From the IMG/VR virus record IMGVR_UViG_3300010970_000064: 37,380 bases of DNA, one strand, 5' to 3'. The DNA is from a virus. Under the pieces are notes generated by a model. The model was given only the letters and a program-made list of their open reading frames with translations. It searched no databases and was not told where the DNA came from. Made by a program: the position numbers and the translations under genes. Positions 1 through 37,380 of this stretch are shown here, one piece after another (the first letter of the stretch is position 1; every line of letters begins with the position of its first letter).

Positions 1-55
1 CACTGATGATGCTGGTTATGCATTGGCTCGTAAGGTTGACAGCAAGTTGATCGAA
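1..55. repeat. Exact 55-nt duplicate of the window end (37326-37380), marking circular closure
   Basis: Direct base-by-base comparison of the two ends shows they are identical. Confidence 0.95.
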
Positions 56-609: not shown

Positions 610-640
610 CTGCCCTGCAGTAGATGTGGGGCAGTTTCTT
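610..640 (+). terminator. Candidate intrinsic terminator after the capsid gene
   Basis: CTGCCC (610-615) pairs with GGGCAG (629-634) and is followed by TTTCTT. A smaller hairpin, ACCTAG-aaa-CTAGGT, lies at 594-608. The 13-nt loop is long, so termination is probably only partial. Confidence 0.45.
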
Positions 641-857: not shown

Positions 858-2609
858 ATGGGTATTTATAGAGGACCCGGTGGTGTAGGCGATGCGGTCA
901 ATGACGCTTCTTCAGAAGCGGTTATTACCGTTACTGCACGTGATGAAGCTGTTGCCGCTAGAAATGCTGCTGTAGTTGCTAAGACTGCTGCAGAGTTAGC
1001 TGAGACTAATGCAGAGCTTGCTGAAGTAGGCGCAGAAGCAGCCTTAGCCGCTGCTCAAGGTGTTGCTACTGACTTATCCGATGACATTGCTGCTGCTTTA
1101 GCGGCTCAAGCGGCTGCTCAAGCCGCTGCAACTGCTGCTGCGACTTCAGCAACTAACGCATCCAATTCTGCTACTGCAGCTTCTGGTTCTGCGTCTACAG
1201 CAACTACACAGGCAACCAATGCAAGCACCTCAGCATCTACAGCAACTACACAAGCAACTAACGCAGCCAGCTCAGCAAGTGCAGCAAGCACTTCAGCAAC
1301 AAACGCTGCAAGCAGTGCATCAAGCGCTTCCACATCTGCTACAAATGCAAGCAACTCCGCTACATCCGCTTCAGGATCAGCTTCTGGAGCAGCTACTTCA
1401 GCCTCTAATGCCAGCACTTCTGCAACTAATGCATCAGCCAGCGCAACAAGCGCTTCAGGCTCAGCAAGCACAGCAACTACACAAGCAGGCATAGCAACAA
1501 CTCAGGCGACAAACGCTTCTAGTTCTGCTTCTGCAGCATCAACATCAGCTTCTGCAGCATCTACCTCAGCAACTAACGCAGCAAGTTCTGCTACAGCGGC
1601 TTCAGGGTCTGCTTCTACTGCTTCTACTCAGGCTTCTAATGCAGCTACTTCAGCAACAAACGCTGCTAATTCGGCAACAGCGGCTGCGGCTTCTGCTACA
1701 GCGGCTGCGGCAGTTATTCCAACTCAAACAGGTAATAACGGTAAGTACTTAAAGACTGACGGAACAAGTACATCTTGGGACGCTTTAGATATTTCTACTG
1801 CTGATGTTAGCGGTACTTTACCGATTGCTAATGGTGGTACAAACAGCACAGCTACTCCTACATTAGGTGGAGCAGTATATGGCACAGGTTCTGCTTACGC
1901 TATTACAGCGGCTGGTACTGCAGGACAGATTCTTACTTCTAATGGCGGTGCTGCTCCAACATGGCAAGCTGCGCCAGTAAGCTTACCTTCACAAACAGGT
2001 AACACAGGTAAGTATTTAACTACTGATGGATCTACAGCTTCCTGGGATGCATTAGCAACAGTAGCTAATAGCGGTTCTTACAATGATTTAATAGATCAGC
2101 CGACATTAACTACTAATTTAGACAGTTTAACTGATGTTACTATTACATCTCCTACCACAGACCAAGTATTAAAATACAATGGATCAGGGTGGGTAAACGG
2201 AGCAGGAGCGACTGGCGGTGGTTTCCCATCTGGAACTTCCATGTTATTTGTTCAAACTGCAGCGCCGACAGGATGGACAAAAGTAACAACACATAATGAT
2301 AAAGCTTTAAGAGTTGTAAGTGGAACAGCTAGTACAGGCGGTTCTGTGGCTTTTACAACTGCTTTTGCAAGCGGAAGCACAGGTGCTTATACATTAGCTA
2401 CTTCACAGATTCCAGCACACTCACATTTATTAGACTTAGCTGGAGGACCAGGATCGCCTGCTGCTAATTTCTATGCAGATACATGGGGTGGTGCATCTTC
2501 AATAGTTCCTCAACTAACAAGTCAATCTACTGGAGGCGGCGGTTCACACAGTCACTCTTTAAGCCTTGCTGTTCAATATGTTGATGTCATTATTGCAACT
2601 AAAGACTAA
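858..2609 (+). CDS. Tail fibre protein with an Ala/Ser/Thr repeat shaft and a C-terminal tail-collar-like domain
   Basis: 583 aa. It has a long SATNAS/TATTQATNA repeat region and a duplicated QTGN.GKYL.TDG...SWDAL motif. The C-terminal GTSMLFVQTAAPTGWTKV ... IPAHSH ... GGGSHSHS resembles phage tail collar (MdpB-type) domains. Confidence 0.75.
   Translation: MGIYRGPGGVGDAVNDASSEAVITVTARDEAVAARNAAVVAKTAAELAETNAELAEVGAEAALAAAQGVATDLSDDIAAALAAQAAAQAAATAAATSATNASNSATAASGSASTATTQATNASTSASTATTQATNAASSASAASTSATNAASSASSASTSATNASNSATSASGSASGAATSASNASTSATNASASATSASGSASTATTQAGIATTQATNASSSASAASTSASAASTSATNAASSATAASGSASTASTQASNAATSATNAANSATAAAASATAAAAVIPTQTGNNGKYLKTDGTSTSWDALDISTADVSGTLPIANGGTNSTATPTLGGAVYGTGSAYAITAAGTAGQILTSNGGAAPTWQAAPVSLPSQTGNTGKYLTTDGSTASWDALATVANSGSYNDLIDQPTLTTNLDSLTDVTITSPTTDQVLKYNGSGWVNGAGATGGGFPSGTSMLFVQTAAPTGWTKVTTHNDKALRVVSGTASTGGSVAFTTAFASGSTGAYTLATSQIPAHSHLLDLAGGPGSPAANFYADTWGGASSIVPQLTSQSTGGGGSHSHSLSLAVQYVDVIIATKD
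1128..1713 (+). repeat. Low-complexity Ala/Ser/Thr/Asn coding repeat inside the tail fibre gene
   Basis: Reiterated GCA/GCT/TCA/ACT-rich units encode (S/T)A(S/T)xATNA-type repeats. This region also creates spurious ORFs in other frames (1118-1492 minus, 1219-1494 plus). Confidence 0.85.
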
Positions 2610-2914
2610 TGAAAATAGAATCTAAACAAAACTGTCCTTTAGATAACTTTAACCCATGTCGTCAATTAGATTGTGCTTGGTTTATGAAAGTACAAGGAAA
2701 AAATCCTAATACTGGGGAAGAAATTGAAGACTGGGCTTGTTCTATGGCTTGGCTTCCTGTTTTATTAATTGAGAACAGTCAGCAACAACGGCACACAGGC
2801 GGAGCTATTGAATCCTTTAGAAATGAAATGGTAAAAGCAAACGACATGAGTCAAAAAGTGCTATTAGCAAGTGCTGGTATTTTACCAAAAGAAACTTTAA
2901 TAATTCAGGATTAA
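2609..2914 (+). CDS. Hypothetical Cys-containing protein (101 aa)
   Basis: ATG overlaps the tail fibre stop (TAATG). Four Cys residues sit in NCPLDNFNPCRQLDCAW...WAC. I did not recognise a family. Confidence 0.55.
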   Translation: MKIESKQNCPLDNFNPCRQLDCAWFMKVQGKNPNTGEEIEDWACSMAWLPVLLIENSQQQRHTGGAIESFRNEMVKANDMSQKVLLASAGILPKETLIIQD

Positions 2915-2916
2915 AA

Positions 2917-3405
2917 ATGCAATTAACAATCATTCGTGCAGATAGTATTGTTTATAAAGACGGTATAGGATACTCTCCGTTAGATTTGTCGGGTGTTCCG
3001 GTTGATGTACACGCACTTCAATTTAACACAGATATTAATTCTGGTTGGATAGAATATAGTCTTCAGCCTGACGGAACCACCAAACCAAGTGAAGATATTA
3101 CAGATTTACCTGTTTGGGCTACTGCTTGCGAACAAAAATGGGACGATGCTGATTATACTGTTAAAAATCCACCACCACCGACACCGGAAGAGGCTCTTTT
3201 TAAATGTAAATCTCAAGCGGCGGCTTTATTGTCACGCACAGACTGGACTGTGTCAGGAGATGTTGGAGATGCAACAAAAGCAAATCCATATTTAGTTAAT
3301 CAAGCTGAATTTATTACATACCGAAATAGTTTAAGAAGTTTAGCGATTAATCCTGTCGTAGATCCTATTTTTCCTGACCTTCCGGTTGAACAATGGTCTA
3401 ATTAA
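2917..3405 (+). CDS. Hypothetical protein, possibly a tail fibre assembly or chaperone-like protein
   Basis: 162 aa, close behind the fibre gene with one short ORF (2609-2914) between. The C-terminal LLSRTDWTV..D......NQAEFITYRNSLRSL resembles the conserved end of tail fibre assembly proteins. Confidence 0.35.
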   Translation: MQLTIIRADSIVYKDGIGYSPLDLSGVPVDVHALQFNTDINSGWIEYSLQPDGTTKPSEDITDLPVWATACEQKWDDADYTVKNPPPPTPEEALFKCKSQAAALLSRTDWTVSGDVGDATKANPYLVNQAEFITYRNSLRSLAINPVVDPIFPDLPVEQWSN

Positions 3406-4577
3406 TGCCAAAAAAGATTTCTATTATTGGTAGTGGTACAGCAGGTGCAATCGGAGCAGCACACTTTTCACGATGGACCGATTGTGAAATAGACTGGTAT
3501 TACGATTCTAAGATTAAAACAATGCCAGTTGGTGAAGGTTCTTTAACAAACCTTCCACAGATGTTATTTGAAGCTGTAGATTTTAGTTATGATGATTTAA
3601 ACGCAATTGACGGCACACCGAAACTAGGTATTCATAAATCTGGTTGGGCTAATGATGTTGATTTTAAAGAACACTTTCGTCCAGGAACAACTGCTTATCA
3701 TTTTAACGCTGTAAAGCTACAAGAGTTTTTATTTAAAAAGCTAGATGGTAGAGTTAATTTAATTGATCAAAATGTAGGCAGTCACGATGAGCTTGATTCA
3801 GATTTTATCTTTGATTGTAAAGGTTTTCCCAAAGAGTTTAGTGAACACCATAAATCAGAATTTATATCCGTTAATGCTGTGTATGTCACTCAGTGTCTGT
3901 GGGATGTTCCAAAGTTTAATTACACCTTAACAATTGCAGTACCACATGGTTGGGTTTTTGGTATTCCATTAAACAACCGCTGCGCTATTGGGTATTTATA
4001 TAACGACCAAATCTCTACTTTAGATGAGATTAAAGAAGACGTAAAGAATGTCTTTGACCGCTTTGGTTTAAACCCAAGTGAGAAGACTTTAGAATTAAAG
4101 TTTAATAATTATTATCGAAAACAGAACTTTGTCGGAAGAGCAGCGTATTCAGGAAATACATCGTTTTTCTTAGAGCCTTTAGAAGCTACGTCTATTGGGT
4201 TTATGGATCAGATTCAACGCATGGCTATGGGTCATTGGTTTGAAGGTATTTCAGCGGATGTTGTAAATGATTTTTATATACAAGCGATACAAGAAATAGA
4301 AAACATCATTATGCTGCATTACTTTGCTGGATCAAAGTATAATACTCCTTTTTGGGAATACGCTCAAGACCGTGGACAAAAGTGCATGGAACGGGCTGTG
4401 AAAAACCCAAGATTTATAGAGTTTTATAAGAACTCTAAGAACTATAATTTTAAGAATTGTTTAAGTACACCTCTTGATAAAATGATGTACGGATCGTGGG
4501 ATCAACGAATCATGAACATGAATATTACACAACTAGATCTAGTTACAAAACTTGATAATTTAATCGGAGCAAATTAA
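3405..4577 (+). CDS. Flavin-dependent halogenase (tryptophan halogenase family) homologue, compact 390-aa form
   Basis: Motifs seen: IIGSGTAGAIGA (GxGxxG), VGEGSLTNLP (compare GVGEATIP), PKLGIHKSGW (Lys strand), HGWVFGIPL (WxWxIP-like) and FFLEPLEATSIG (catalytic Glu motif). Both ends are translationally coupled to neighbouring genes. Confidence 0.7.
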   Translation: MPKKISIIGSGTAGAIGAAHFSRWTDCEIDWYYDSKIKTMPVGEGSLTNLPQMLFEAVDFSYDDLNAIDGTPKLGIHKSGWANDVDFKEHFRPGTTAYHFNAVKLQEFLFKKLDGRVNLIDQNVGSHDELDSDFIFDCKGFPKEFSEHHKSEFISVNAVYVTQCLWDVPKFNYTLTIAVPHGWVFGIPLNNRCAIGYLYNDQISTLDEIKEDVKNVFDRFGLNPSEKTLELKFNNYYRKQNFVGRAAYSGNTSFFLEPLEATSIGFMDQIQRMAMGHWFEGISADVVNDFYIQAIQEIENIIMLHYFAGSKYNTPFWEYAQDRGQKCMERAVKNPRFIEFYKNSKNYNFKNCLSTPLDKMMYGSWDQRIMNMNITQLDLVTKLDNLIGAN

Positions 4578-4948
4578 TGGCACACTACGCTAAAGTCTTA
4601 TCAACAGACAACTCAACAAAGTTTTACGTACAGGAAGTAATTGTTGCTGACGCAGAGTTTATTTCTGCTTTACCAGGACTATATAAGCAAACTTCATATA
4701 ACACTCGTGGTAATGTTCATTACGGTTCCGACGGGCAGCCCGATGGCGGTGTAGCCTTACGTGCAAACTATGCAGGTATTGGACACATTTACGATATTGT
4801 AAATGATGTATTCTATGCTCCACAGCCTTTTCCTTCATGGACTTTAAACGAATCCACATGGACTTGGGAAGCTCCTGTGTCTTATCCTACTGACGGTAAT
4901 CAATATACTTGGGACGAAACTACTCAGTCTTGGGTTGTGTTTGCATAA
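4577..4948 (+). CDS. Conserved phage hypothetical protein with a Trp-rich C-terminus
   Basis: 123 aa, TAATG coupling to the upstream gene. Motifs: MAHYAKV..., QTSYNTRGNVH, LRANYAGIGHIYD, PFPSWTLNESTWTWEAP, YTWDETTQSW. It resembles a widespread phage protein of unknown function. Confidence 0.6.
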   Translation: MAHYAKVLSTDNSTKFYVQEVIVADAEFISALPGLYKQTSYNTRGNVHYGSDGQPDGGVALRANYAGIGHIYDIVNDVFYAPQPFPSWTLNESTWTWEAPVSYPTDGNQYTWDETTQSWVVFA

Positions 4949-5164: not shown

Positions 5165-5496
5165 AACTATTATCTATCGGTAAGAATCTCACAGCAGGTG
5201 TTGAGACAATTATTTATACAGTCCCAGAAGGCTATCAAGCTACTTGGAACTTAATGTATATACATAATGGTGGCGGTAATACTAAATCATTAACTATTGA
5301 ATGGCAAGACACAGCCGCTGGTGCTGATATTGTTATTTTACAAGATAGACCTTTTCCATCTAAAGAGTACTTCCAGTTTAATGGCTATGGCTCTGGTATT
5401 GTTTTACGTGAACGTGATAAGATCAAAATGACACCTGAAGCAGGGTCTGCGTTCAGTATGGTTTGTACAGTTATATTGGAGAAAGCACAAGCATGA
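5161..5496 (+). CDS. Hypothetical protein (111 aa)
   Basis: ATGA overlap with the upstream ORF. No family recognised. Confidence 0.5.
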   Translation: MKLLSIGKNLTAGVETIIYTVPEGYQATWNLMYIHNGGGNTKSLTIEWQDTAAGADIVILQDRPFPSKEYFQFNGYGSGIVLRERDKIKMTPEAGSAFSMVCTVILEKAQA

Positions 5497-5654
5497 ACAA
5501 GAAACAAACAGCTAAAGTTGGTAAAGTCATGGGCGAGTATAAAGACAAGACTTTACACAGCGGTAAAGGTGGTCCAGTAGTTAAATCTCGTAAACAAGCT
5601 ATTGCAATCGCTTTAAGCGAAGCAAAGATGCCAATGAAGAAAGCAAAGAAATGA
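5493..5654 (+). CDS. Small basic protein (53 aa), DUF6496-like
   Basis: I prefer the ATG at 5493 because it forms an ATGA overlap with the previous stop; the track start at 5463 lies inside the upstream gene. KVMGEYKDKTLHSGKGGPVVKSRKQAIAIALSEA matches my recollection of that family. Confidence 0.55.
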   Translation: MNKKQTAKVGKVMGEYKDKTLHSGKGGPVVKSRKQAIAIALSEAKMPMKKAKK

Positions 5655-5803
5655 AACAAGGACTCTATTCAAACATCGCAGCAAAGAAAAAACGTATTGC
5701 TGAAGGCTCTGGTGAGAAGATGCGTAAGGTTGGCTCTAAAGGCGCTCCTACCGCTAAGGCTTTTAAAGACTCAGCTAAGACAGCAAAGAAGAGCTATAAA
5801 TGA
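5651..5803 (+). CDS. Small basic protein (50 aa), not in the supplied ORF track
   Basis: ATGA overlaps at both ends. Product: MKQGLYSNIAAKKKRIAEGSGEKMRKVGSKGAPTAKAFKDSAKTAKKSYK. Confidence 0.5.
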   Translation: MKQGLYSNIAAKKKRIAEGSGEKMRKVGSKGAPTAKAFKDSAKTAKKSYK

Positions 5804-6069
5804 TTAAAAAAGGTACTGAAACTTTCTCAGGCTACAACAAGCCAAAGAAGACACCTAACCACCCAACTAAGTCTCATGCTGTGCTTGCGAAGGCAGGCGA
5901 CAAAGAGAAGCTTATCAGGTTTGGTCAACAAGGTGTTTCTGGAGCAGGTTCTAGTCCTTCCTCAGCAGCCGAGAAAGCTCGTCAGAAGAGCTTCAAAGCA
6001 AGACACGCTGAGAACATCGCTAAAGGTAAGATGTCGGCTGCGTACTGGGCTGACAAGGTTAAGTGGTAA
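5800..6069 (+). CDS. Basic protein (89 aa), DUF5872-like
   Basis: KPKKTPNHPTKSHAVLAK.GDKEKLIRFGQQG ... SFKARH ... AAYWADKVKW resembles a family seen in phages and large DNA viruses. Confidence 0.55.
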   Translation: MIKKGTETFSGYNKPKKTPNHPTKSHAVLAKAGDKEKLIRFGQQGVSGAGSSPSSAAEKARQKSFKARHAENIAKGKMSAAYWADKVKW

Positions 6070-6072
6070 GCT

Positions 6073-6276
6073 GTGAAGTTGTATCATAACTGGAGAGAGA
6101 TTCTCCGGAAGTCGTGGTCTTTAAAGTTCATAGTCTTAGCAGCAATCTTGACAGCCTGTGAAGCAATCCTTCCACTGTACTGGGATCAGTTTCCTAGAGA
6201 TACGTTTGCAGCCTTAACCTTTATTACCATTATTGCAGCTTCCATAGCTCGTTTAGTGGCTCAAAAAGATATATGA
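6073..6276 (+). CDS. Putative holin (pinholin-like, two TM segments) with a non-ATG start
   Basis: 67 aa with two hydrophobic helices (FIVLAAILTACEAILPLY and AALTFITIIAASIARLV). It lies immediately upstream of, and ATGA-coupled to, the SAR endolysin. The frame has no ATG, so the start must be GTG 6073 or TTG 6079. Confidence 0.6.
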   Translation: MKLYHNWREILRKSWSLKFIVLAAILTACEAILPLYWDQFPRDTFAALTFITIIAASIARLVAQKDI

Positions 6277-6734
6277 ATGAGAAGATTAGACGCAACGCAG
6301 CAATATTGTCAATCAGTGCTTTAACAGTAATTGGTATTGCCTCACATGAAGGATTCCGTGAGAAGGCTTATAGAGACGTTACAGGGGTTCCTACGGTAGG
6401 ATATGGAGAGACCAAGGGAGTTACAATGGACTCAACCACGACCCGTTTAGATGCCTTGATGAGGCTTGAGATAAGTGCAGGAGAACACGGTAAAGGAATG
6501 GTGCAATGCATTAAAGTTCCTATCTCCCAAGGCGAGTACGATGCTTATGTCAGTTTTACTTATAACGTCGGTGTAGGAGCTTTTTGTCGGTCTACGCTGG
6601 TAAAGAAGCTTAATAACAAGGACTACGACGGAGCCTGTAAAGAATTATTAAAGTGGACACAAGCAGGCGGTAAAGTATACCCTGGGCTGGTTAAACGTAG
6701 ACAACAAGAATATAACACCTGTATTGGAGACTAA
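6273..6734 (+). CDS. SAR endolysin, T4-lysozyme-like (GH24) muramidase
   Basis: The E26-x8-D35-x5-T41 catalytic triad sits in HEGFREKAYRDVTGVPTVGYGET. The N-terminal segment AAILSISALTVIGIAS is weakly hydrophobic and rich in Ala, Ser and Gly, typical of signal-arrest-release domains. Confidence 0.85.
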   Translation: MNEKIRRNAAILSISALTVIGIASHEGFREKAYRDVTGVPTVGYGETKGVTMDSTTTRLDALMRLEISAGEHGKGMVQCIKVPISQGEYDAYVSFTYNVGVGAFCRSTLVKKLNNKDYDGACKELLKWTQAGGKVYPGLVKRRQQEYNTCIGD

Positions 6735-7211
6735 ATGGGTTGGTTACTAAGTGGCTTTAATGGTTTAATTGCACTAGCAGCAGCGGTAGCTATCGCCTTT
6801 GGTGGCGGTGCTTATATGGGATCTAAATATAGGACTAACTACTATGAAGCAAAGATTGCAAAAGATAAAGAAATATATCAGCAAGCTCTGGCGGAAAGCA
6901 AGGCTAAATTTGACGATGCTACGGCTGAGTATTTTCAACAGATAAAACAGGAGCAAACAAAGAATGCATACTACACAAAACAGGTCAAGAATCTCTACAC
7001 TGTTGGCAGTCCTAACTGTAACGTCACTTATGGCTTTATCAGGCTGTACAACGACTCCGCCAGCGGTAGCTCCTCAGATCCCAAAAGCACTGACAACCTC
7101 ACTTCCGAAGTTGACCTTGCTACCGTACTCACCACCGACATTGAAAACCACGGAAAGTACCGTGAAGCAGCAGCCCAAATAGAAGCATTAAAGTCAGGAA
7201 ATAGCAAATAA
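6735..7211 (+). CDS. i-spanin (Rz-like)
   Basis: It has an N-terminal TM (LIALAAAVAIAFGGGAYMG) and a charged coiled-coil periplasmic domain. It follows the endolysin and contains the embedded o-spanin ORF. Confidence 0.75.
   Translation: MGWLLSGFNGLIALAAAVAIAFGGGAYMGSKYRTNYYEAKIAKDKEIYQQALAESKAKFDDATAEYFQQIKQEQTKNAYYTKQVKNLYTVGSPNCNVTYGFIRLYNDSASGSSSDPKSTDNLTSEVDLATVLTTDIENHGKYREAAAQIEALKSGNSK
6964..7182 (+). CDS. o-spanin (Rz1-like lipoprotein), fully embedded in the +1 frame of the i-spanin gene
   Basis: The signal peptide carries the lipobox LSGC (MHTTQNRSRISTLLAVLTVTSLMALSG|C), and the mature part is Pro-rich. The arrangement is the classic embedded Rz/Rz1 architecture. Confidence 0.75.
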   Translation: MHTTQNRSRISTLLAVLTVTSLMALSGCTTTPPAVAPQIPKALTTSLPKLTLLPYSPPTLKTTESTVKQQPK

Positions 7212-7216
7212 AATGC

Positions 7217-7245
7217 TTGACTTTTCAGCTCTTTTGTGGTAAAAT
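7217..7245 (+). promoter_or_regulatory. Sigma70-type promoter TTGACT-N17-TAAAAT with an extended -10 TG
   Basis: TTGACT at 7217-7222, exact 17-nt spacer, TGgTAAAAT with the -10 at 7240-7245. It lies in the 55-nt gap before the tail-tube genes. Confidence 0.65.
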
Positions 7246-7266
7246 ATTAGCACCTATAAGGAAACC

Positions 7267-7920
7267 ATGTCCTACACTTATATTCAACTTGTTAACGAAG
7301 TACTTGTTCGCTTACGTGAGCGTGAAGTTACTTCCGTTAATGATACAGCATATTCCAAGCTAATCGGTAAGTTTGTCAATGACGCTAAACGTCAAGCCGA
7401 AGATGCGTACAACTGGAATGCTTTAAGCACAACTCTTACAGCAGACACTACTCCAGGAATCTTTAACTACGTGTTAGAAGGCTCTGGACAACGGTTCCGT
7501 ATGATTGATGTTATCAATGATAGCTCCGATTATATCCTCAAGAACGTAGCTACTACTGAAATGGATCGTATGTTCTTAACCACATCGACAGATCGTGGTG
7601 AGCCTCGTTATTATAACTTTAATGGAACTAATACAAATGGTGACACGCAAGTCGATTTATATCCTATTCCTGATACTGTTTATAGTTTACGTTTTAACAT
7701 AATCCGTCCACAGCCTCCACTGAACTTAAACAGTGATACATTATTAATTCCACATGAGCCAGTCATCTTTGGTGCTGTCGCTCGTGGAATGGCAGAGCGT
7801 GGTGAAGACGGCGGTATGGATTCTAATGCCATGTATGCATTGTATCAACAATCTCTTGGCGACGCTATTTCACTTGAGTCAGGTCGTTATATCGAAGAAG
7901 CAGCTTGGATTGACATCTAA
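7267..7920 (+). CDS. Putative tail tubular protein A or adaptor-like protein
   Basis: 217 aa. It is the first gene of the tail operon and is TAATG-coupled to the larger tail protein, with size and order like T7 gp11/gp12. The call rests on synteny only. Confidence 0.4.
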   Translation: MSYTYIQLVNEVLVRLREREVTSVNDTAYSKLIGKFVNDAKRQAEDAYNWNALSTTLTADTTPGIFNYVLEGSGQRFRMIDVINDSSDYILKNVATTEMDRMFLTTSTDRGEPRYYNFNGTNTNGDTQVDLYPIPDTVYSLRFNIIRPQPPLNLNSDTLLIPHEPVIFGAVARGMAERGEDGGMDSNAMYALYQQSLGDAISLESGRYIEEAAWIDI

Positions 7921-9713
7921 TGGCTGAACAGTTACTAACAGGTGCTATACAAGCTCCGGGATTCTCTGGATTAAACATCCAAGACTCCACGGTACAGCTT
8001 ACCAGTGGCTTTGCTCTTGAAGCTTACAACTGTGTCATTGACCGATATGGTCGTATTGGCGCACGTAAGGGCTGGACTAAAGTGAATACAACTGCAGCCA
8101 GTACAGGTAGCTTTAGAGCTATCTTTGAGTTAGTTAAGAATGATGGTAATATTGTCGTTAGTGCAGCTAATAATAAACTGTACACAGGAACAACTACACT
8201 TACTGAGCAATCTGTTTACGGTACAAACTATAAATCAGGAGCTACATACACACAAACAGGTGTAACTGTTACAGTAACTAAAGCAGCTCACGGATACACT
8301 GCAGGACAGGTTGTTCATTTCAATGTATCTTCTGGGACTTTACTTGACGGTAATTACACTGTAGTTGCTCCAACAACAGATACATTTACTGTTACGGCTG
8401 CGGTTTCTGCCACAACAAGTGGTTCTACATCTTTAGTGAATGTTATTCCTTATGCGATTACTGAGAACAACTGGCAGTTTACAGCAATGCCTTATCTTGG
8501 CGGTATTAACAGCTCTGCTCATATCATTGGTGTTCAGCGTAATCATGCTCCTTTAATTTATCATCGTTATGGCACAGACCACACTGATGAGTATGGTTTT
8601 CAGCGTTTAGGTGACTTAGCAGCATTACCGACAGGATATACTGTTGATACATTTAAGCCTTCTTGCTCCGTAACTGCCTTTGGTCGTTTATGGGTTGCTA
8701 ATATCGGCACAGACGATCAGACAGTATACTTTAGTGATCTACAAGATCCTATTAACTTCACTACTGGTACTGCAGGTTACTTAGACGTAAGTCAAGTGAT
8801 TCCTACAGGTGATGGTATTGTAGCTTTAGCGTCGCATAATGGATTCTTAGCTATCTTTTGTCATCGTCACATTATTCTTTATTCTAACCCTACAGACCCA
8901 ACAGCATTAGCTGTACAAGATGTCATTAAAGGTGTTGGTTGTATTGCTCGTGATTCAGTAGCTTCTGTAGCTGGTACAGACAACTTATTCTTATCTGAAA
9001 CAGGTGTCCAATCTTTACAGCGTCTCGTTGTAGAAAAGTCAATGCCGTTTCGTGATATATCTAAGAATGTTCGTGATGAGTTAATCTCTAACGTAAATAC
9101 AGAAGATGAAGATAACATCAAGGCTGTGTACTATGCTCCTGATGCGTTCTATTTGTTATCACTACCTACAACAGGATTTACATACTGTTTTGATACTCGT
9201 GGACAGTTAGAAAGTGGAGCTGCAAGAGCTACTGTATGGAGAAACATTAATCCTACAGCGTTCTGCGTAACAGAAGCCCGAGAACTTTATATGGGTAAAC
9301 CCGGTTATATTGGAGTATACGAAGAATATGCAGACAACACAGTACCTTATCGCTTTAGTTATTACACTAACTATTTTGACATGGATAGCCCAACAACAAT
9401 TAAGATCCTTAAAAAGGTCGGTGTTGTAGCCATTGGTGGTCGTGGTCAAAACTTATCAGTTAAATGGGCTTTTGATTACACTGGTAATCATGATAGTCAA
9501 ACAATTGCATTATCTTCAGGCGGTATTGCTGAATATGGTATCGGTGAATACGGTATTGCAGAATATAGTAGTGGAATTTCATTAGACTCAGTTAAGTTCA
9601 ATGCAACTGGAACTGGTAAAGTCGTTCAATTAGGATTTGAGTGTGACATTGACGGATCTCCGTTATCCATTCAAAAGATCGACTTAGCATTAAAACAAGG
9701 TAAGAACCTTTAA
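7920..9713 (+). CDS. Putative tail tubular protein B or nozzle-like protein
   Basis: 597 aa, placed by synteny with podovirus tail genes. It contains a GI(A/G)EY x3 tandem repeat near the C-terminus. Confidence 0.4.
   Translation: MAEQLLTGAIQAPGFSGLNIQDSTVQLTSGFALEAYNCVIDRYGRIGARKGWTKVNTTAASTGSFRAIFELVKNDGNIVVSAANNKLYTGTTTLTEQSVYGTNYKSGATYTQTGVTVTVTKAAHGYTAGQVVHFNVSSGTLLDGNYTVVAPTTDTFTVTAAVSATTSGSTSLVNVIPYAITENNWQFTAMPYLGGINSSAHIIGVQRNHAPLIYHRYGTDHTDEYGFQRLGDLAALPTGYTVDTFKPSCSVTAFGRLWVANIGTDDQTVYFSDLQDPINFTTGTAGYLDVSQVIPTGDGIVALASHNGFLAIFCHRHIILYSNPTDPTALAVQDVIKGVGCIARDSVASVAGTDNLFLSETGVQSLQRLVVEKSMPFRDISKNVRDELISNVNTEDEDNIKAVYYAPDAFYLLSLPTTGFTYCFDTRGQLESGAARATVWRNINPTAFCVTEARELYMGKPGYIGVYEEYADNTVPYRFSYYTNYFDMDSPTTIKILKKVGVVAIGGRGQNLSVKWAFDYTGNHDSQTIALSSGGIAEYGIGEYGIAEYSSGISLDSVKFNATGTGKVVQLGFECDIDGSPLSIQKIDLALKQGKNL
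9522..9566 (+). repeat. 3 x 15-bp tandem coding repeat (GIAEY-GIGEY-GIAEY)
   Basis: ggtattgctgaatat / ggtatcggtgaatac / ggtattgcagaatat, read directly from the sequence. Confidence 0.9.
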
Positions 9714-13886: not shown

Positions 13887-15896
13887 ATGCCGGTATATCA
13901 ATACGACGGACAGCATTACGATCTTCCTGAAGGTTTGTCGAATGAACAAGCAATTGCAAAGATTAAATCTCATTTAGGTCAACCTGCTACCGCAACACCA
14001 AGCACTCCAGCAGTTACAACTGAACAACCGAAAAGGTCATTGGTAGAAGAAGCAATTCGTCAAGTTGGTTTGACTGGAAGAGCAGCTTACGAGGCATTCA
14101 CGTCTCCTGCAACAGCCGTACTAGAAGGAGCTACTGGTGCTTACAATCTAGGAGCGCAATTACTTGGCTCTAAAAGCCGTGCGCCTTCTATTGCAGCAGA
14201 ACAAAGTAAAATGCTAAGTAGTGTTTTACCAACTCCTGAAAATGCCACTGAACGTGCTGTACAGTCTGGTGTTCAAGCAATGACAAGCACAGCAGGTTTA
14301 GCTAAAGTAGCCCCTAATGTGGCTGTTTTGTCTGCTGATATGGCTCGTCAAATACCCGTAGCTGGAATCTCTGGATTAGCTGCACAGCCTGCTGCTGAGT
14401 TTGTGAAAGATGCTACAGGTAGTGACTTGGCTGCAACTATTGCAGGTATCGGTGTAGGTACTCTTACGGCTGCAGGTGCAGGAAAAGCATTGTCGGCATT
14501 AGAGACAGGTAAACAGCCTATCTATACTATGAAGCAAGTCAAAGAACGTGCAGCTCAGTCTTATACTGCCGTTGATAATGCAGGTGTTACTTTAAAACCT
14601 GATAGTGTCAGAGGAATGATTACTAACATCAGACAAGGTTTAGATGATGCTCGGATGGTTCCTGGTACAGATCAAGCGGATGCAGTAACACTTCGTTTAG
14701 CAGAGATGGAAAAAGTATTAGGCAACAATAAAGAACTATCTTTTTCTTCTTTAGATAAAATGCGTTCTATGTTGAACGATTTAAAAGGTAGCTCAGACCG
14801 AGACATTAGTCGACTAGGTAATGTCGCTGTAAGTAAAGTTGATGATTACATTAGTAACTTAGGTGCTGGTGATATTATTGCTGGTAAAGACGGTATTAAC
14901 CAAGCTGTTAAAAGTGTTATGTCAGCTCGTAAAGACTGGCGAAATGCAAGTCGTGCTGAGATGCTTGATGATGCATTGAATACTGCTGAAGCACGTGCGT
15001 TGGACCCTAAAGCGTCTGAAAGTGAACTTATCCGTCGTGGCTTTATTAACATTGCTGCAAACAAAGATAAATTAAAACTGTTTAATGAGACAGAACAGAA
15101 TGTAATTAAATCTGTTGCTAAAGGCGGTACGTTAGATCCTTTATTGAGTATTGCTTCTAGATTTAGTCCGTTACGTTCACAGTTAGCAGCCGCAGGCGGA
15201 GCAGCAGTCTACACACAATCTCCAACAGCAGCTATAGCGTTGTCTGGTGGTGGTTTAGCTGCAGATTTGACACAAGGCTTTTTACGTAGCAGAGCAGCAA
15301 AGTCTGCCATTAACAGAATTGCATCTGGAGCGCAGCCTGACGCACCAAACCTTGCTTATCGTGGCTTACTAAGCGAGACATTGAATCCACCAACATTACA
15401 ACCAGAGCCTCAAACAGGTCTGATGAATGCTCCTGTGGAGCCAGTGTCTGAGTCTACTAGAAAAGCTGTATCAGATTCAGTTCCTGAAGTGAAGATCAAA
15501 CCAGCTACTAGTTTTGATACACAACATCCAATTGCTCAGAAAATAGCTCAAGAAGCTGATAGACAAGGCTTAGGAGAGTTTAAAGATATTCTAATGCGTC
15601 AAGCATACCAAGAGTCTCGTTTTGATCCTATGGCTCGTTCTAAGAAGAATGCACGTGGTGTAATGCAGATTGTTCCAGGGACTGCAAGAGATTTAGGCTT
15701 AAAAGACCCTTACAATGCTGACGATAACATCCGTGCTGGTGTAGAGTACATGGGTCAACTTCTAAGACGTTATAACTATGACGTTAAGAAAGCCCTTGCA
15801 GCTTATAACTATGGAATGGGTCGTGTAGATAAACAAGGACTTACTCGTCTCCCTAAAGAGACTAGAGATTATCTAAATAAGATACTACAAGAGTAA
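13887..15896 (+). CDS. Internal virion protein with a C-terminal lytic transglycosylase (SLT) domain
   Basis: The C-terminus has QESRFDPMARSKKNARGVMQIVPGTARDLG ... NIRAGVEYMGQL ... ALAAYNYG, which is an SLT/goose-lysozyme-like motif set. It is the last gene of the late arm, comparable to T7 gp16. Confidence 0.75.
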   Translation: MPVYQYDGQHYDLPEGLSNEQAIAKIKSHLGQPATATPSTPAVTTEQPKRSLVEEAIRQVGLTGRAAYEAFTSPATAVLEGATGAYNLGAQLLGSKSRAPSIAAEQSKMLSSVLPTPENATERAVQSGVQAMTSTAGLAKVAPNVAVLSADMARQIPVAGISGLAAQPAAEFVKDATGSDLAATIAGIGVGTLTAAGAGKALSALETGKQPIYTMKQVKERAAQSYTAVDNAGVTLKPDSVRGMITNIRQGLDDARMVPGTDQADAVTLRLAEMEKVLGNNKELSFSSLDKMRSMLNDLKGSSDRDISRLGNVAVSKVDDYISNLGAGDIIAGKDGINQAVKSVMSARKDWRNASRAEMLDDALNTAEARALDPKASESELIRRGFINIAANKDKLKLFNETEQNVIKSVAKGGTLDPLLSIASRFSPLRSQLAAAGGAAVYTQSPTAAIALSGGGLAADLTQGFLRSRAAKSAINRIASGAQPDAPNLAYRGLLSETLNPPTLQPEPQTGLMNAPVEPVSESTRKAVSDSVPEVKIKPATSFDTQHPIAQKIAQEADRQGLGEFKDILMRQAYQESRFDPMARSKKNARGVMQIVPGTARDLGLKDPYNADDNIRAGVEYMGQLLRRYNYDVKKALAAYNYGMGRVDKQGLTRLPKETRDYLNKILQE

Positions 15897-36993: not shown

Positions 36994-37380
36994 ATGGCTT
37001 TCGGTGATAACAATCAAACAATAACAACAGCGAATAAGTTCATTCCAGAAATTTGGAGTGACGAGGTCGTAGCAACATACAAAAAGAACTTGGTTCTTGC
37101 AAACCTCATCAAAAAAATGTCTTTCAAAGGCAAAAAAGGTGACTCACTGCATATTCCAAAACCAGGACGTGGCAATGCAAACGCTAAGACTGCAGCTACT
37201 CAAGTAACTTTGAACGTAGACACAGCAACTGAAGTTGTAGTATCTATCGACCAACATTGGGAATATTCAATCTTGATCGAAGACATCGTAGAAGCTCAAG
37301 CTTTGGCTTCTATGCGTCAGTTCTACACTGATGATGCTGGTTATGCATTGGCTCGTAAGGTTGACAGCAAGTTGATCGAA
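36994..37380 (+). CDS. Major capsid protein, N-terminal part (the ORF continues at nt 1-592 across the circular junction)
   Basis: AGGAGA lies 8 nt upstream of the ATG. The N-terminus MAFGDNNQTITTANKFIPEIWSDEV is typical of HK97-fold podovirus capsid proteins. There is no stop before the window end. Confidence 0.8.
   Translation, partial: MAFGDNNQTITTANKFIPEIWSDEVVATYKKNLVLANLIKKMSFKGKKGDSLHIPKPGRGNANAKTAATQVTLNVDTATEVVVSIDQHWEYSILIEDIVEAQALASMRQFYTDDAGYALARKVDSKLIE
37326..37380. repeat. Exact 55-nt duplicate of nt 1-55
   Basis: Direct comparison of the two ends. Confidence 0.95.

What the first reader, a model, noticed from the sequence alone, without database searches (positions are those of the whole stretch)
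3405..4577. Compact flavin-dependent halogenase homologue inside the tail-fibre/lysis late operon
The 390-aa ORF keeps every hallmark I can recognise of tryptophan-halogenase-family enzymes. These are GxGxxG (IIGSGTAG), VGEGSLTNLP, the Lys-bearing PKLGIHKSGW strand, a WxWxIP-like GWVFGIPL (second Trp replaced by Phe) and the catalytic-Glu motif FFLEPLEATSIG. It is at least 100 aa shorter than characterised Trp halogenases, so it probably lacks their C-terminal substrate module. It is translationally coupled on both sides, between a tail fibre or chaperone-like pair and the lysis cassette, which is an unusual place for a redox enzyme. It could act on a host surface or metabolite target, on a virion protein, or have been recruited as a non-catalytic fold.
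Basis: partly seen in the sequence, partly recalled or inferred. Interest (0 to 1): 0.7.

Follow-up and report, generated by a model that had tools for sequence, protein, structure and literature searches.

The report
Compact phage flavin-dependent halogenase gene
This marine phage gene encodes a shortened but apparently working version of the enzymes that attach chlorine, bromine or iodine to aromatic rings; it belongs to a large, almost virus-only, uncharacterised branch of an enzyme family already known in phages.

Summary
ORF 3405-4577 (+, 390 aa) is real, every quoted motif is present, and its start and stop each overlap a neighbouring gene by 1 nt.

It is a clear member of the tryptophan-halogenase family:
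- Pfam PF04820 scores 110.9 bits against a cut-off of 21, and it is the only family hit.
- PHROG 2928 'tryptophan halogenase' scores 5.5e-71.
- The AlphaFold model (pLDDT 95.5) matches only flavin-dependent halogenases at the top (PyrH, Xcc4156, BrvH, PrnA, VirX1; E about 1e-26).

In 73 compact relatives the FAD motifs, the catalytic Lys (K73 = PrnA K79) and the catalytic Glu (E260 = PrnA E346) are invariant. The roughly 148 residues missing relative to PrnA are mostly internal (PrnA 105-157 and 190-205), plus about 57 at the C-terminus. The equivalents of the indole-stacking residues F103 and W455 are kept.

The compact clade is large and almost entirely viral: at least 584 IMG/VR contigs against 1 hit in 185,579 species genomes. 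Cultured cyanophages already carry it, annotated as 'tryptophan halogenase' or hypothetical.

A tail fibre-chaperone-halogenase gene order recurs, but mostly within one lineage. The slot after such chaperones holds 36 different gene families.

Verdict: a probably active accessory halogenase with an unknown aromatic substrate. It is a new member of a known kind and of moderate interest.

The parts
3405..4577 (+). Gene for the 390-aa compact flavin-dependent (tryptophan-type) halogenase
   Evidence: ORF. PF04820 110.9 bits. PHROG 2928 5.5e-71. AF2 model pLDDT 95.5. Foldseek top hits PyrH, Xcc4156, BrvH, PrnA, VirX1.
3429..3446 (+). GxGxxG dinucleotide-binding motif (G9-S-G11-T-A-G14)
   Evidence: G9, G11 and G14 are invariant in 73 relatives. 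It aligns to PrnA G12-G17.
3528..3539 (+). VGEG motif (V42 G43 E44 G45), equivalent to PrnA V47-G-E-A50 near the flavin
   Evidence: V42, G43 and E44 are invariant. Alignment.
3621..3623 (+). Codon of K73, equivalent to the catalytic Lys79 of PrnA
   Evidence: phmmer, profile and MAFFT alignments all pair it with PrnA K79. Invariant.
3675..3677 (+). Codon of F91, aligned to PrnA F103 (indole-stacking residue)
   Evidence: MAFFT alignment with the verified PrnA sequence. Invariant in the clade.
3951..3968 (+). WxFxIP variant of the WxWxIP motif (W183 V F185 G I187 P188)
   Evidence: W183, F185 and P188 are invariant, I187 at >=90%. It aligns to PrnA W272-T-W274-K-I-P.
4167..4184 (+). F255-L-E257-P258-L-E260, matching FX[DE]PX[EFL]; E260 is equivalent to the catalytic Glu346 of PrnA
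   Evidence: F255, L256, E257, P258 and E260 are invariant. Alignment to PrnA FLEPLE. Motif definition from PMC8407142.
4497..4499 (+). Codon of W365, aligned to PrnA W455 / RebH W466 (indole-stacking residue)
   Evidence: Supported by MAFFT and independently by the HMMER profile alignment to RebH. At least 90% conserved.
858..2609 (+). Tail-fibre gene at the head of the tightly packed gene run
   Evidence: PHROG 3279 tail fibre protein 9.5e-13. C-terminal part similar to cyanophage tail-fibre and baseplate proteins.
2609..2914 (+). 101-aa Cys-containing ORF of unknown function; its start overlaps the tail-fibre stop
   Evidence: No Pfam or PHROG match. Conserved in the same position in L001-L003.
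2917..3405 (+). 162-aa tail-fibre assembly / chaperone-like ORF; its stop overlaps the halogenase start
   Evidence: Weak PHROG hits only: tail assembly chaperone 4.5e-4, tail fibre assembly 5.6e-4. Not recovered by the Phage_tail_APC-type HMM built from other loci, so the assignment is tentative.
4577..4948 (+). 123-aa Trp/Tyr-rich ORF (PHROG 7759, function unknown); its start overlaps the halogenase stop
   Evidence: PHROG 7759 1.5e-26. Widespread in marine phages that have no halogenase. Recurs near compact halogenases in 6 of 63 loci.
6073..7211 (+). Lysis cassette downstream on the same strand: holin 6073-6276, endolysin 6273-6734, spanin-like 6735-7211
   Evidence: PHROG 1356 holin 4.9e-11, PHROG 7 endolysin 3.7e-51, PHROG 1403 Rz-like spanin 5e-6.

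Best explanation
ORF 3405-4577 encodes a catalytically competent, two-component flavin-dependent halogenase of a compact (~380-400 aa), almost virus-only clade of the tryptophan-halogenase family.

Inferred mechanism, taken from the PrnA/RebH paradigm: a host flavin reductase supplies FADH2, since none is recognisable in the phage. FADH2 reacts with O2 and a halide at the flavin site (GxGxxG, VGEG, G250-N251) to form hypohalous acid. The WxFxIP wall keeps substrate away from the flavin. The oxidant passes to K73/E260, which direct electrophilic halogenation of an electron-rich aromatic ring.

That ring is probably indole-like and held between F91 and W365. The PrnA segments that enclose free L-tryptophan and bind its amino-acid end are deleted or not conserved. 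I therefore infer a shallower, more open pocket that does not read free L-Trp specifically, comparable to open-site enzymes such as VirX1 or BrvH.

The gene is an accessory cargo gene. It sits in the variable slot downstream of the tail-fibre/chaperone genes and is probably expressed with the late structural and lysis genes.

Shown here: family membership, fold, conservation, deletion map, gene context and distribution. Inferred: catalytic activity, the reductase source, pocket openness, expression timing and the substrate.
For: - Family and fold. PF04820 is the only Pfam hit, at 110.9 bits against a cut-off of 21. PHROG 2928 'tryptophan halogenase' scores 5.5e-71. All 30 PDB sequence hits are flavin-dependent halogenases, with PrnA at 2.8e-16 and profile hits down to 1.6e-30. 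The AF2 model has pLDDT 95.5 and pTM 0.93. All 50 top Foldseek PDB hits are halogenases, at E about 1e-26 to 1e-23 and TMq 0.68-0.78.
- Catalytic residues. G9/G11/G14, V42-G43-E44, K73, W183/F185/P188, F255-L-E257-P258, E260, G250 and N251 are invariant in 73 relatives whose mean column identity is only 50%. K73 and E260 pair with PrnA K79 and E346 in three independent alignments. The PrnA sequence used was verified identical to 2apg_A.
- Selection. Against the 89%-identical homologue, pN = 0.059 and pS = 0.80 (saturated).
- Aromatic pocket. F91 aligns to PrnA F103 and is invariant. W365 aligns to PrnA W455 / RebH W466 and is >=90% conserved.
- Deletions are mapped.
- No flavin reductase was recognised among the window ORFs scanned.
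- Operon. Both flanks overlap by 1 nt. No terminator or promoter signal above chance lies between 858 and 7211.
- Clade size. There are 345 clusters at 50% identity with E <= 1e-30, nearly all 350-430 aa. At least 584 IMG/VR contigs carry a relative, against 1 hit in the GTDB species genomes.
- Cargo slot. The position after APC-type chaperones holds 36 different gene families in 75 loci.
Against: - No biochemical evidence exists for any member of the compact clade. Several full-length PF04820 proteins with an intact Lys/Glu pair still have no known natural substrate.
- The second Trp of WxWxIP is Phe, and PrnA S347 is Ala (A261, invariant). The effect of either change is unknown.
- I could not inspect model coordinates, so K73-E260 geometry, the tunnel and pocket openness are inferred from alignment only.
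- The C-terminal alignment (W365 = W455) lies in a low-identity region.
- Late co-transcription is inferred from gene packing, not measured.
Confidence: 0.7

Rival explanations
1. The enzyme halogenates Trp or Tyr side chains of a virus-encoded protein, most plausibly the tail fibre made from the same operon. This would be an optional decoration that tunes adsorption, stability or resistance to proteolysis.
For: - In 11 dereplicated IMG/VR loci the order is collagen-repeat tail fibre, Phage_tail_APC chaperone, compact halogenase. The halogenase start overlaps the chaperone stop in every case.
- The window has the analogous order but lies outside that halogenase clade.
- Cultured cyanomyoviruses S-RIM4 and S-ShM2 place a compact halogenase directly upstream of virion structural and tail-fibre genes.
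- Overall 22 of 63 loci have a fibre or chaperone gene within 4 genes.
- Frequent neighbours are 2OG-Fe(II) oxygenases, carbamoyltransferases and sulfotransferases. Iyer et al. 2010 proposed that collagen-like and tail-collar proteins are the substrates of hydroxylase/sulfotransferase operons (PMC2938197).
- The contig types range from pelagiphage-like podoviruses to cyanomyoviruses, an AmoC-carrying virus and a giant-virus-like contig. That spread favours either a universal or a virus-encoded substrate.
- The amino-acid-binding part of the Trp pocket is lost while the indole-stacking residues are kept.
Against: - The 11 fibre-chaperone-halogenase loci form a single halogenase clade, so they count as roughly one event.
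- Counting independent lineages gives about 20%, against a rough chance expectation of 10-18%.
- Of 80 loci with related chaperones, 69 have no halogenase within 5 kb. The slot after the chaperone holds 36 gene families. The fibre/chaperone system therefore works without the halogenase.
- About two thirds of the compact halogenases lie in other contexts, such as replication modules and tailoring-enzyme islands.
- No halogenated virion protein has been reported, to my knowledge.
Confidence: 0.13
2. The protein keeps the fold and binds flavin but carries out other chemistry, or releases free hypohalous acid, rather than regioselective halogenation. Candidate roles are hydroxylation or oxidation of a metabolite, or oxidative damage.
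For: The substrate module is strongly reduced. The second Trp of the WxWxIP wall, proposed to block monooxygenation (PMC8407142), is Phe in all members. Distant Foldseek matches in viral proteomes are FAD monooxygenases.
Against: - K73 and E260 are needed for halogenation but not for monooxygenation, and both are invariant.
- No monooxygenase family reaches significance in Pfam.
- The halogenase matches are about 15 orders of magnitude stronger than the monooxygenase matches.
- Variants of WxWxIP occur in active halogenases.
Confidence: 0.1
3. The gene is a decaying or non-catalytic remnant. On this view it is a truncated halogenase fold kept as a structural or binding protein, or a transient passenger picked up by recombination, as was suggested for prnA in P-SSM2 in 2005.
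For: The protein is about 148 aa shorter than PrnA. Sullivan et al. 2005 classed the cyanophage prnA among 'hypothesized transient genes' (PMC1079782). Its position is in a variable slot.
Against: - The length is tightly conserved (mostly 378-405 aa) across hundreds of diverged relatives.
- Catalytic and cofactor residues are invariant.
- pN is 0.059 with saturated pS.
- The fold is predicted confidently, with no disordered or broken parts.
- The deletions are shared by the whole clade, so they are an old, stable architecture and not recent decay.
Confidence: 0.04

Closest known systems
VirX1, flavin-dependent halogenase of cyanophage Syn10 (PDB 6QGM), the only characterised viral halogenase
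   Same: It is virus-encoded and belongs to the same PF04820 family and fold (phmmer 8.7e-11, profile 5.2e-21, Foldseek about 5e-25). It has the Lys/Glu catalytic pair and a large accessible active site with broad aromatic substrate scope, and its natural substrate is unknown (PMC8407142).
   Different: VirX1 is 531 aa and has the full substrate module, whereas this protein is 390 aa. Identity over the Foldseek alignment is only 16-17%. tblastn against Syn10 gives 24.7% over 57% of the query. Halide preference and oligomeric state are unknown here.
PrnA / RebH tryptophan 7-halogenases (PDB 2APG, 2E4G), the mechanistic paradigm
   Same: GxGxxG, GEA/GEG, K79 (= K73), WxWxIP (here WxFxIP) and FLEPLE with E346 (= E260) are shared. 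The indole-stacking F103 (= F91) and W455 (= W365) are also kept.
   Different: PrnA residues 105-157 and 190-205, two small segments and about 57 C-terminal residues are missing. Residues that bind the amino-acid part of L-Trp in PrnA (Y443, Y444, E450 from my own knowledge of the PrnA structure) have no conserved counterpart. S347 is Ala and G349 is Ser. PrnA and RebH sit in antibiotic gene clusters, and this gene does not.
BrvH / Xcc4156 and related marine-bacterial 'orphan' indole halogenases (PDB 6FRL, 6Y1W, 9LUQ, 9LTB)
   Same: These are among the best structural and profile matches (Foldseek 2.7e-26 for 6Y1W and 9.5e-26 for 6FRL; profile 1.6e-30 for 9LUQ). They are family members that lie outside classical biosynthetic clusters.
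   Different: They are 476-523 aa cellular proteins. The compact clade is almost absent from cellular genomes.
Compact 'tryptophan halogenase' genes already annotated in cultured cyanomyoviruses and in UniProt
   Same: Examples are S-ShM2 SShM2_028 (359 aa), the S-RIM14 gene, S-RIM4 RW110999_041 (387 aa, 'hypothetical protein') and UniProt A0A6J5L5N7 (393 aa, uncultured Caudovirales phage). All share the shortened architecture. S-RIM4 is 45.5% identical over 93% of the query. The genes sit next to virion structural and tail-fibre genes. The BFVD model A0A6J5L5N7 superposes with TM 0.72/0.72 and rmsd 3.2. Sullivan et al. 2010 list prnA genes of 1104-1167 bp.
   Different: These are from T4-like myoviruses of cyanobacteria or uncultured freshwater phages. 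The window is a ~37-kb podovirus-like genome whose DNA polymerase is closest to those of pelagiphages and roseophages. None of these proteins has been studied experimentally.

Membership tests
Flavin-dependent halogenases of the tryptophan-halogenase family (Pfam PF04820) | Profile match above the curated threshold, with no better match to another FAD oxidoreductase family | tested here: met
   PF04820 scores 110.9 bits against a cut-off of 21 and is the only family at E <= 1. PHROG 2928 scores 5.5e-71. NCBIfam has no model that matches.
Flavin-dependent halogenases of the tryptophan-halogenase family (Pfam PF04820) | N-terminal GxGxxG Rossmann motif and the acidic/GEx flavin contacts | tested here: met
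   G9-S-G11-T-A-G14 and V42-G43-E44 are invariant. D34 (= PrnA E38) is >=90% conserved.
Flavin-dependent halogenases of the tryptophan-halogenase family (Pfam PF04820) | Catalytic lysine (PrnA K79) | tested here: met
   K73 aligns to K79 in the phmmer, profile and MAFFT alignments and is invariant in 73 sequences.
Flavin-dependent halogenases of the tryptophan-halogenase family (Pfam PF04820) | Catalytic glutamate (PrnA E346) within FX[DE]PX[EFL] | tested here: met
   F255-L-E257-P258-L-E260 is present and E260 is invariant. Motif definition from PMC8407142.
Flavin-dependent halogenases of the tryptophan-halogenase family (Pfam PF04820) | WxWxIP motif | tested here: inconclusive
   It is present as W183-V-F185-G-I-P188. 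The second Trp is Phe in every member. The review notes that variants or absence of the motif occur in active halogenases.
Flavin-dependent halogenases of the tryptophan-halogenase family (Pfam PF04820) | Two-module fold: FAD-binding box plus helical substrate module | tested here: met
   The AF2 model has pLDDT 95.5. Foldseek TMq is 0.68-0.78 to PyrH, PrnA, RebH and VirX1. The helical module is present but reduced (residues 262-389).
Flavin-dependent halogenases of the tryptophan-halogenase family (Pfam PF04820) | FADH2-, O2- and halide-dependent halogenation activity | not testable with these tools
   This needs purified protein, a flavin reductase, NADH, halide and LC-MS.
Free-L-tryptophan halogenases in the strict sense (PrnA, RebH, PyrH, Thal type) | Complete substrate pyramid, including PrnA 105-157 and the C-terminal residues that bind the amino-acid moiety of L-Trp | tested here: not met
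   PrnA 105-157, 190-205 and about 57 C-terminal residues are absent. Only the F103 and W455 equivalents are kept. The protein should therefore not be filed as a tryptophan 5-, 6- or 7-halogenase.
Free-L-tryptophan halogenases in the strict sense (PrnA, RebH, PyrH, Thal type) | Location in a secondary-metabolite biosynthetic gene cluster | tested here: not met
   The window is a complete phage genome with no biosynthetic core genes.
Virion structural protein or tail-fibre maturation factor | Obligatory co-occurrence with the tail fibre/chaperone pair | tested here: not met
   69 of 80 loci with related chaperones lack a halogenase. About two thirds of compact halogenases lie in other contexts.
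Virion structural protein or tail-fibre maturation factor | Presence in purified virions, or halogenated residues on virion proteins | not testable with these tools
   This requires virion proteomics.

The most novel reading that the evidence does not exclude
The compact, virus-restricted halogenases may be protein-modifying enzymes. On this reading they halogenate exposed Trp or Tyr residues of tail fibres or other virion proteins made from the same late operon. That would be the first enzymatic halogenation of a virus particle and a new way of tuning host recognition. A weaker version is also of interest: they are the smallest natural Trp-type halogenase scaffold, with an open site usable for biocatalysis.
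Probability: 0.12. Interest if true: 0.85.

Novelty: new member of a known kind. Interest (0 to 1): 0.38.

Why it matters
Phage 'tryptophan halogenase' genes have been listed as auxiliary genes since 2005. Only one, the full-length VirX1, has been studied, and none has a known natural substrate.

This gene belongs to a large, diverged, almost virus-only branch that has lost about a quarter of the protein yet keeps every catalytic residue. The chemistry is therefore under selection in viruses of very different hosts.

Three consequences follow:
- Enzymologists gain a candidate minimal halogenase scaffold, with a predicted open pocket.
- Marine virologists gain a concrete, testable question, because cultured cyanophages (S-RIM4, S-ShM2) carry the same architecture next to their tail-fibre genes. 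Does infection produce halogenated metabolites, or halogenated virion proteins?
- If neither is found, the gene remains an ordinary accessory gene of unknown substrate.

Tried and rejected
1. NCBIfam scan: no model matches.
2. Megablast of 25 kb of the window against 50,697 phage records: no match, so there is no close cultured relative.
3. A flavin-reductase partner in the phage: none recognised in Pfam or PHROG scans of 40 window ORFs.
4. The downstream ORF 4577-4948 (PHROG 7759) as an obligatory partner or substrate: rejected. The family is widespread in marine phages that lack a halogenase and is near the halogenase in only 6 of 63 loci.
5. Homology of window ORF 2917-3405 to the Phage_tail_APC chaperones found upstream of other compact halogenases: not detected by an HMM built from them. 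Only weak PHROG hits support the chaperone label.
6. Obligatory fibre/chaperone-halogenase coupling: rejected.
7. Informative domain fusions: P0193 is only a tandem double halogenase, and the 300-aa extension of P0248 has no Pfam match.
8. Cellular homologues for host or pathway clues: the GTDB scan gave one 7-kb MAG contig with phage-like small ORFs.
9. The VirX1 primary paper (PMC6875430) is not held, so a review was used instead.
10. I could not obtain model coordinates, so K73-E260 distances, tunnel and pocket volume were not measured.
Full report
OBSERVATION. The ORF is real and as described. It runs from 3405 to 4577 on the + strand, starts with ATG and encodes 390 aa. It carries IIGSGTAG (residues 7-14), VGEGSLTNLP (42-51), PKLGIHKSGW (72-81), GWVFGIPL (182-189) and FFLEPLEATSIG (254-265). 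Its ATG overlaps the stop of ORF 2917-3405 by 1 nt (TAATG). Its stop overlaps the ATG of ORF 4577-4948 in the same way.

GENOME SETTING. The window is a complete circular assembly.
- The first 55 nt equal the last 55 nt, and the major head gene spans the junction.
- It is a ~37.3-kb podovirus-like genome. Terminase, portal, head, tail fibre, lysis, tail and internal-virion genes lie on the + strand. Ribonucleotide reductase, DNA polymerase, exonuclease and primase/helicase lie on the - strand.
- Its DNA polymerase is closest to those of pelagiphages HTVC103P/104P/115P (about 51%) and Roseobacter CRP phages (44-46%).
- No cultured phage is similar at the DNA level.
- The halogenase sits in a tightly packed same-strand run. 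A terminator-like hairpin follows the head gene (610-634). No promoter or terminator signal above chance lies between 858 and 7211.
- The lysis cassette begins 1.5 kb further on (6073-7211), after six small ORFs. 'Between the fibre genes and lysis' is therefore only roughly right.

WHAT IT IS. The protein is an unambiguous member of the tryptophan-halogenase family.
- Pfam gives a single hit, PF04820, at 110.9 bits against a cut-off of 21.
- PHROGs gives family 2928 'tryptophan halogenase' at 5.5e-71.
- Every one of 30 PDB sequence matches is a flavin-dependent halogenase, including PrnA, RebH, PyrH, Thal, BrvH and VirX1.
- A profile of 73 relatives raises these matches to 1e-30 to 1e-20.
- AlphaFold2 with that alignment gives a very confident model: mean pLDDT 95.5, pTM 0.93, and 362 of 390 residues at >=90.
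- The first 50 Foldseek matches in the PDB are all halogenases, at E about 1e-26 to 1e-23 and TM 0.68-0.78 normalised to the query.
- In the viral structure library the only strong matches are two halogenase-like proteins. One is a 393-aa 'flavin-dependent halogenase' of an uncultured phage (TM 0.72/0.72). FAD monooxygenases follow about 15 orders of magnitude weaker.

ACTIVE SITE. My recalled PrnA sequence proved identical to PDB 2apg_A over all 538 residues, so PrnA numbering could be used. Three independent alignments (phmmer, profile, MAFFT) agree on the following pairs:
- K73 = K79
- E260 = E346
- G9-G14 = G12-G17
- V42-G-E44 = V47-G-E49
- W183-x-F185-x-I-P188 = W272-x-W274-x-I-P

In 73 relatives with only 50% mean column identity, all of these residues are invariant. 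So are G250, N251, S253, F255, L256, E257 and P258. Against the 89%-identical homologue, pN is 0.059 while pS is 0.80, which is saturated. This is the pattern of an enzyme under selection for catalysis, not of a recruited scaffold.

Two clade-wide substitutions are of unknown consequence. The second Trp of WxWxIP is Phe, and PrnA S347 is Ala (A261). The review literature notes that WxWxIP variants occur in active enzymes, and that FX[DE]PX[EFL], which is present here, is the more general motif (PMC8407142).

WHAT IS MISSING. The shortfall of 148 residues relative to PrnA is not simply a lost C-terminal module.
- PrnA 105-157 is replaced by a few residues.
- PrnA 190-205 is absent.
- Two small segments (near PrnA 228-234 and 258-260) are absent.
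- About 57 residues are missing from the C-terminal helical region.
- A reduced helical module of seven helices remains (residues 262-389).

F91 aligns with PrnA F103 and is invariant. W365 aligns with PrnA W455 / RebH W466 and is >=90% conserved. The latter pairing is supported by MAFFT and independently by the HMMER profile alignment to RebH. From my own knowledge of the PrnA structure, these two residues stack on the indole ring of the substrate. The residues that hold the amino-acid end of L-Trp (Y443, Y444, E450) have no conserved counterpart here.

My inference is an indole-type pocket that no longer reads free L-tryptophan and is probably more open. I could not inspect coordinates, so this step is not shown.

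HOW COMMON, AND WHERE.
- The word-indexed search found more than 1,045 relatives. The best 120 are mostly 378-405 aa, with a few outliers (348, 370 and 473 aa).
- The exhaustive representative search found 345 clusters at 50% identity with E <= 1e-30, again nearly all 350-430 aa apart from fragments.
- A scan of one genome per 185,579 bacterial and archaeal species with comparable patterns found a single 7-kb MAG contig with phage-like small ORFs. Both scans use exact peptide patterns, so distant members are missed.
- Carriers include podovirus-sized contigs, a 158-kb virus with AmoC, a contig with giant-virus-like genes that has two copies, and T4-like cyanophages.
- Among cultured phages the closest is S-RIM4 (45.5% identity, annotated 'hypothetical protein'). 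Other phage halogenases are at most 33% identical.
- Shortened versions were already visible in the literature. Sullivan et al. 2010 list prnA genes of 1104-1167 bp beside ones of 1437-1593 bp (PMC3037559), and S-ShM2 annotates a 359-aa 'tryptophan halogenase'.

GENE CONTEXT. I called genes in 95 loci and dereplicated them to 63 by halogenase identity.
- Recurrent neighbours are collagen-repeat tail fibres (14/63, mostly at position -2) and Phage_tail_APC chaperones (11/63, always at -1).
- Two families that are or look like 2OG-Fe(II) oxygenases also recur (13/63 and 11/63). Only the first has Pfam support; the representative of the second had no Pfam match.
- Carbamoyltransferases occur in 6/63, and further halogenase paralogues occur in tandem.
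- In all 11 fibre-chaperone-halogenase loci, and in the window, the halogenase start overlaps the upstream stop.
- S-RIM4 and S-ShM2 place their compact halogenase directly upstream of virion structural and tail-fibre genes.

This fits the tailoring-enzyme islands described by Iyer et al. 2010. They suggested secondary-metabolite or peptide modification for phage halogenase/dioxygenase clusters. They also proposed collagen-like and tail-collar proteins as substrates for hydroxylase/sulfotransferase operons (PMC2938197).

TESTING THE FIBRE LINK. Three checks weaken an obligatory link.
- The 11 loci form one halogenase clade in a neighbour-joining tree, so they represent about one event. The window lies elsewhere in the tree.
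- Counting independent lineages, adjacency to fibre genes is about 20%. That compares with a rough expectation of 10-18% from gene counts (my estimate, not a formal test).
- I fetched 80 loci by the chaperone instead of by the halogenase. Only 11 carry a halogenase and 69 do not. The gene directly after the chaperone belongs to 36 different families in 75 loci.

The position is therefore a variable cargo slot beside the fibre module. The fibre link survives as a minority hypothesis, not as the explanation. The downstream ORF (PHROG 7759) is likewise not a dedicated partner, because it is common in marine phages without a halogenase.

MECHANISM. The most likely account is an active two-component flavin-dependent halogenase.
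- A host reductase supplies FADH2, since none is recognisable in the phage.
- Hypohalous acid forms at the flavin.
- K73 and E260 then direct electrophilic substitution on an aromatic, probably indole-like, ring held between F91 and W365.

Carriers span viruses of very different hosts, including streamlined ones with little secondary metabolism. The substrate is therefore more likely a universal metabolite or a virus-encoded molecule than a host-specific natural product. This is inference. Halide preference cannot be read from the sequence. I give the 'active halogenase, accessory late gene, aromatic substrate unknown' account a confidence of 0.7.

COMPARISON AND NOVELTY.
- It works like PrnA/RebH at the flavin and Lys/Glu sites, and probably like VirX1 or BrvH in having an accessible pocket.
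- It is a member of PF04820.
- It fails the features that define free-L-Trp halogenases (complete pyramid, biosynthetic cluster), so it should not be named a tryptophan 5-, 6- or 7-halogenase.
- Phage halogenase homologues are long known, VirX1 is characterised, a PHROG family exists, and compact forms are already annotated. I therefore rate this a new member of a known kind.
- What this analysis adds is the deletion map, the invariance of the catalytic set, the near-exclusive viral distribution and the recurrent but non-obligatory fibre-module position. None of these appears in the papers retrieved by my literature searches.
- Interest is moderate (0.38). The protein-halogenation reading, if true, would be much more interesting.

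Noticed in passing
window 1-55 and 37326-37380; head gene across the junction (about 36.98 kb to 592): The first 55 nt are identical to the last 55 nt, and the major head protein ORF continues across the junction. The window is therefore a complete circular assembly of about 37,325 bp.
   Followed up: yes
window 610-634 (+): A strong terminator-like hairpin (10 pairs, 6 GC, followed by a T-run) lies directly after the major head gene. This is the classic position for an attenuator that raises capsid mRNA levels.
   Followed up: no
window 858-2609 (+): The tail-fibre ORF has about 250 residues of Ala/Ser/Thr low-complexity repeats (ATSASNASTSA...). Local GC is 0.478 against about 0.40 for the genome. 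Long mirror ORFs in other frames are by-products of the repeats.
   Followed up: partly
window 4577-4948 (+): This Trp/Tyr-rich 123-aa protein of PHROG 7759 is widespread in marine phages. Carriers include Roseobacter CRP-143, Methylophilales phage Melnitz (three copies), pelagiphages HTVC025P, Greip and HTVC023P, and cyanomyoviruses. Its function is unknown.
   Followed up: partly
window 5463-6069 (+): Three consecutive small Lys-rich ORFs (DUF6496 at 5463-5654, then 5651-5803, then PHROG 7595 at 5800-6069) lie between the halogenase block and the holin. They may be internal or DNA-associated proteins.
   Followed up: no
L004/L005 (JGI 3300043333 contig, 158 kb), halogenase at 8001-9173, AmoC at 15051-15818: A large viral contig carrying an ammonia monooxygenase subunit C gene, as reported for marine thaumarchaeal viruses, also carries a compact halogenase.
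   Followed up: no
L009/L023/L024, halogenases at 6958-8142 and 9928-11106 of L009: This contig has RNA polymerase Rpb6, a dual-specificity phosphatase and wide gene spacing, so it looks like a giant virus. It carries two diverged compact halogenase paralogues separated by an alpha/beta hydrolase and a 2OG-oxygenase-like gene.
   Followed up: no
L007/L008 and L017, downstream of the halogenase: A 96-kb viral contig has, directly after the halogenase, two 2OG-Fe(II) oxygenases, a carbamoyltransferase, two sulfotransferases and an Asp/Arg hydroxylase-like protein. All follow three Gly_rich_2 fibre-like genes and a tail chaperone, forming a full tailoring island beside the fibre module.
   Followed up: partly
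L144, L150, L152, L154 (gene directly after the APC-type chaperone): In four loci the slot after the tail-fibre chaperone holds a P-loop kinase-like protein (MGLPGSGKTTLAKAL..., resembling APS or other nucleotide kinases). This is another enzyme in the position the halogenase occupies elsewhere.
   Followed up: no
P0193 (765 aa, metagenomic protein): This protein is a tandem fusion of two halogenase domains in one polypeptide. Tandem separate paralogues (two or three copies) are also frequent in viral loci such as L060, L065, L073 and L077.
   Followed up: partly
window 7920-9713 (+): This 597-aa ORF in the tail module matches PHROG 5107, which is labelled 'amidase' (3.8e-31 over its whole length). 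The label may be misleading for what looks like a tail structural protein.
   Followed up: no
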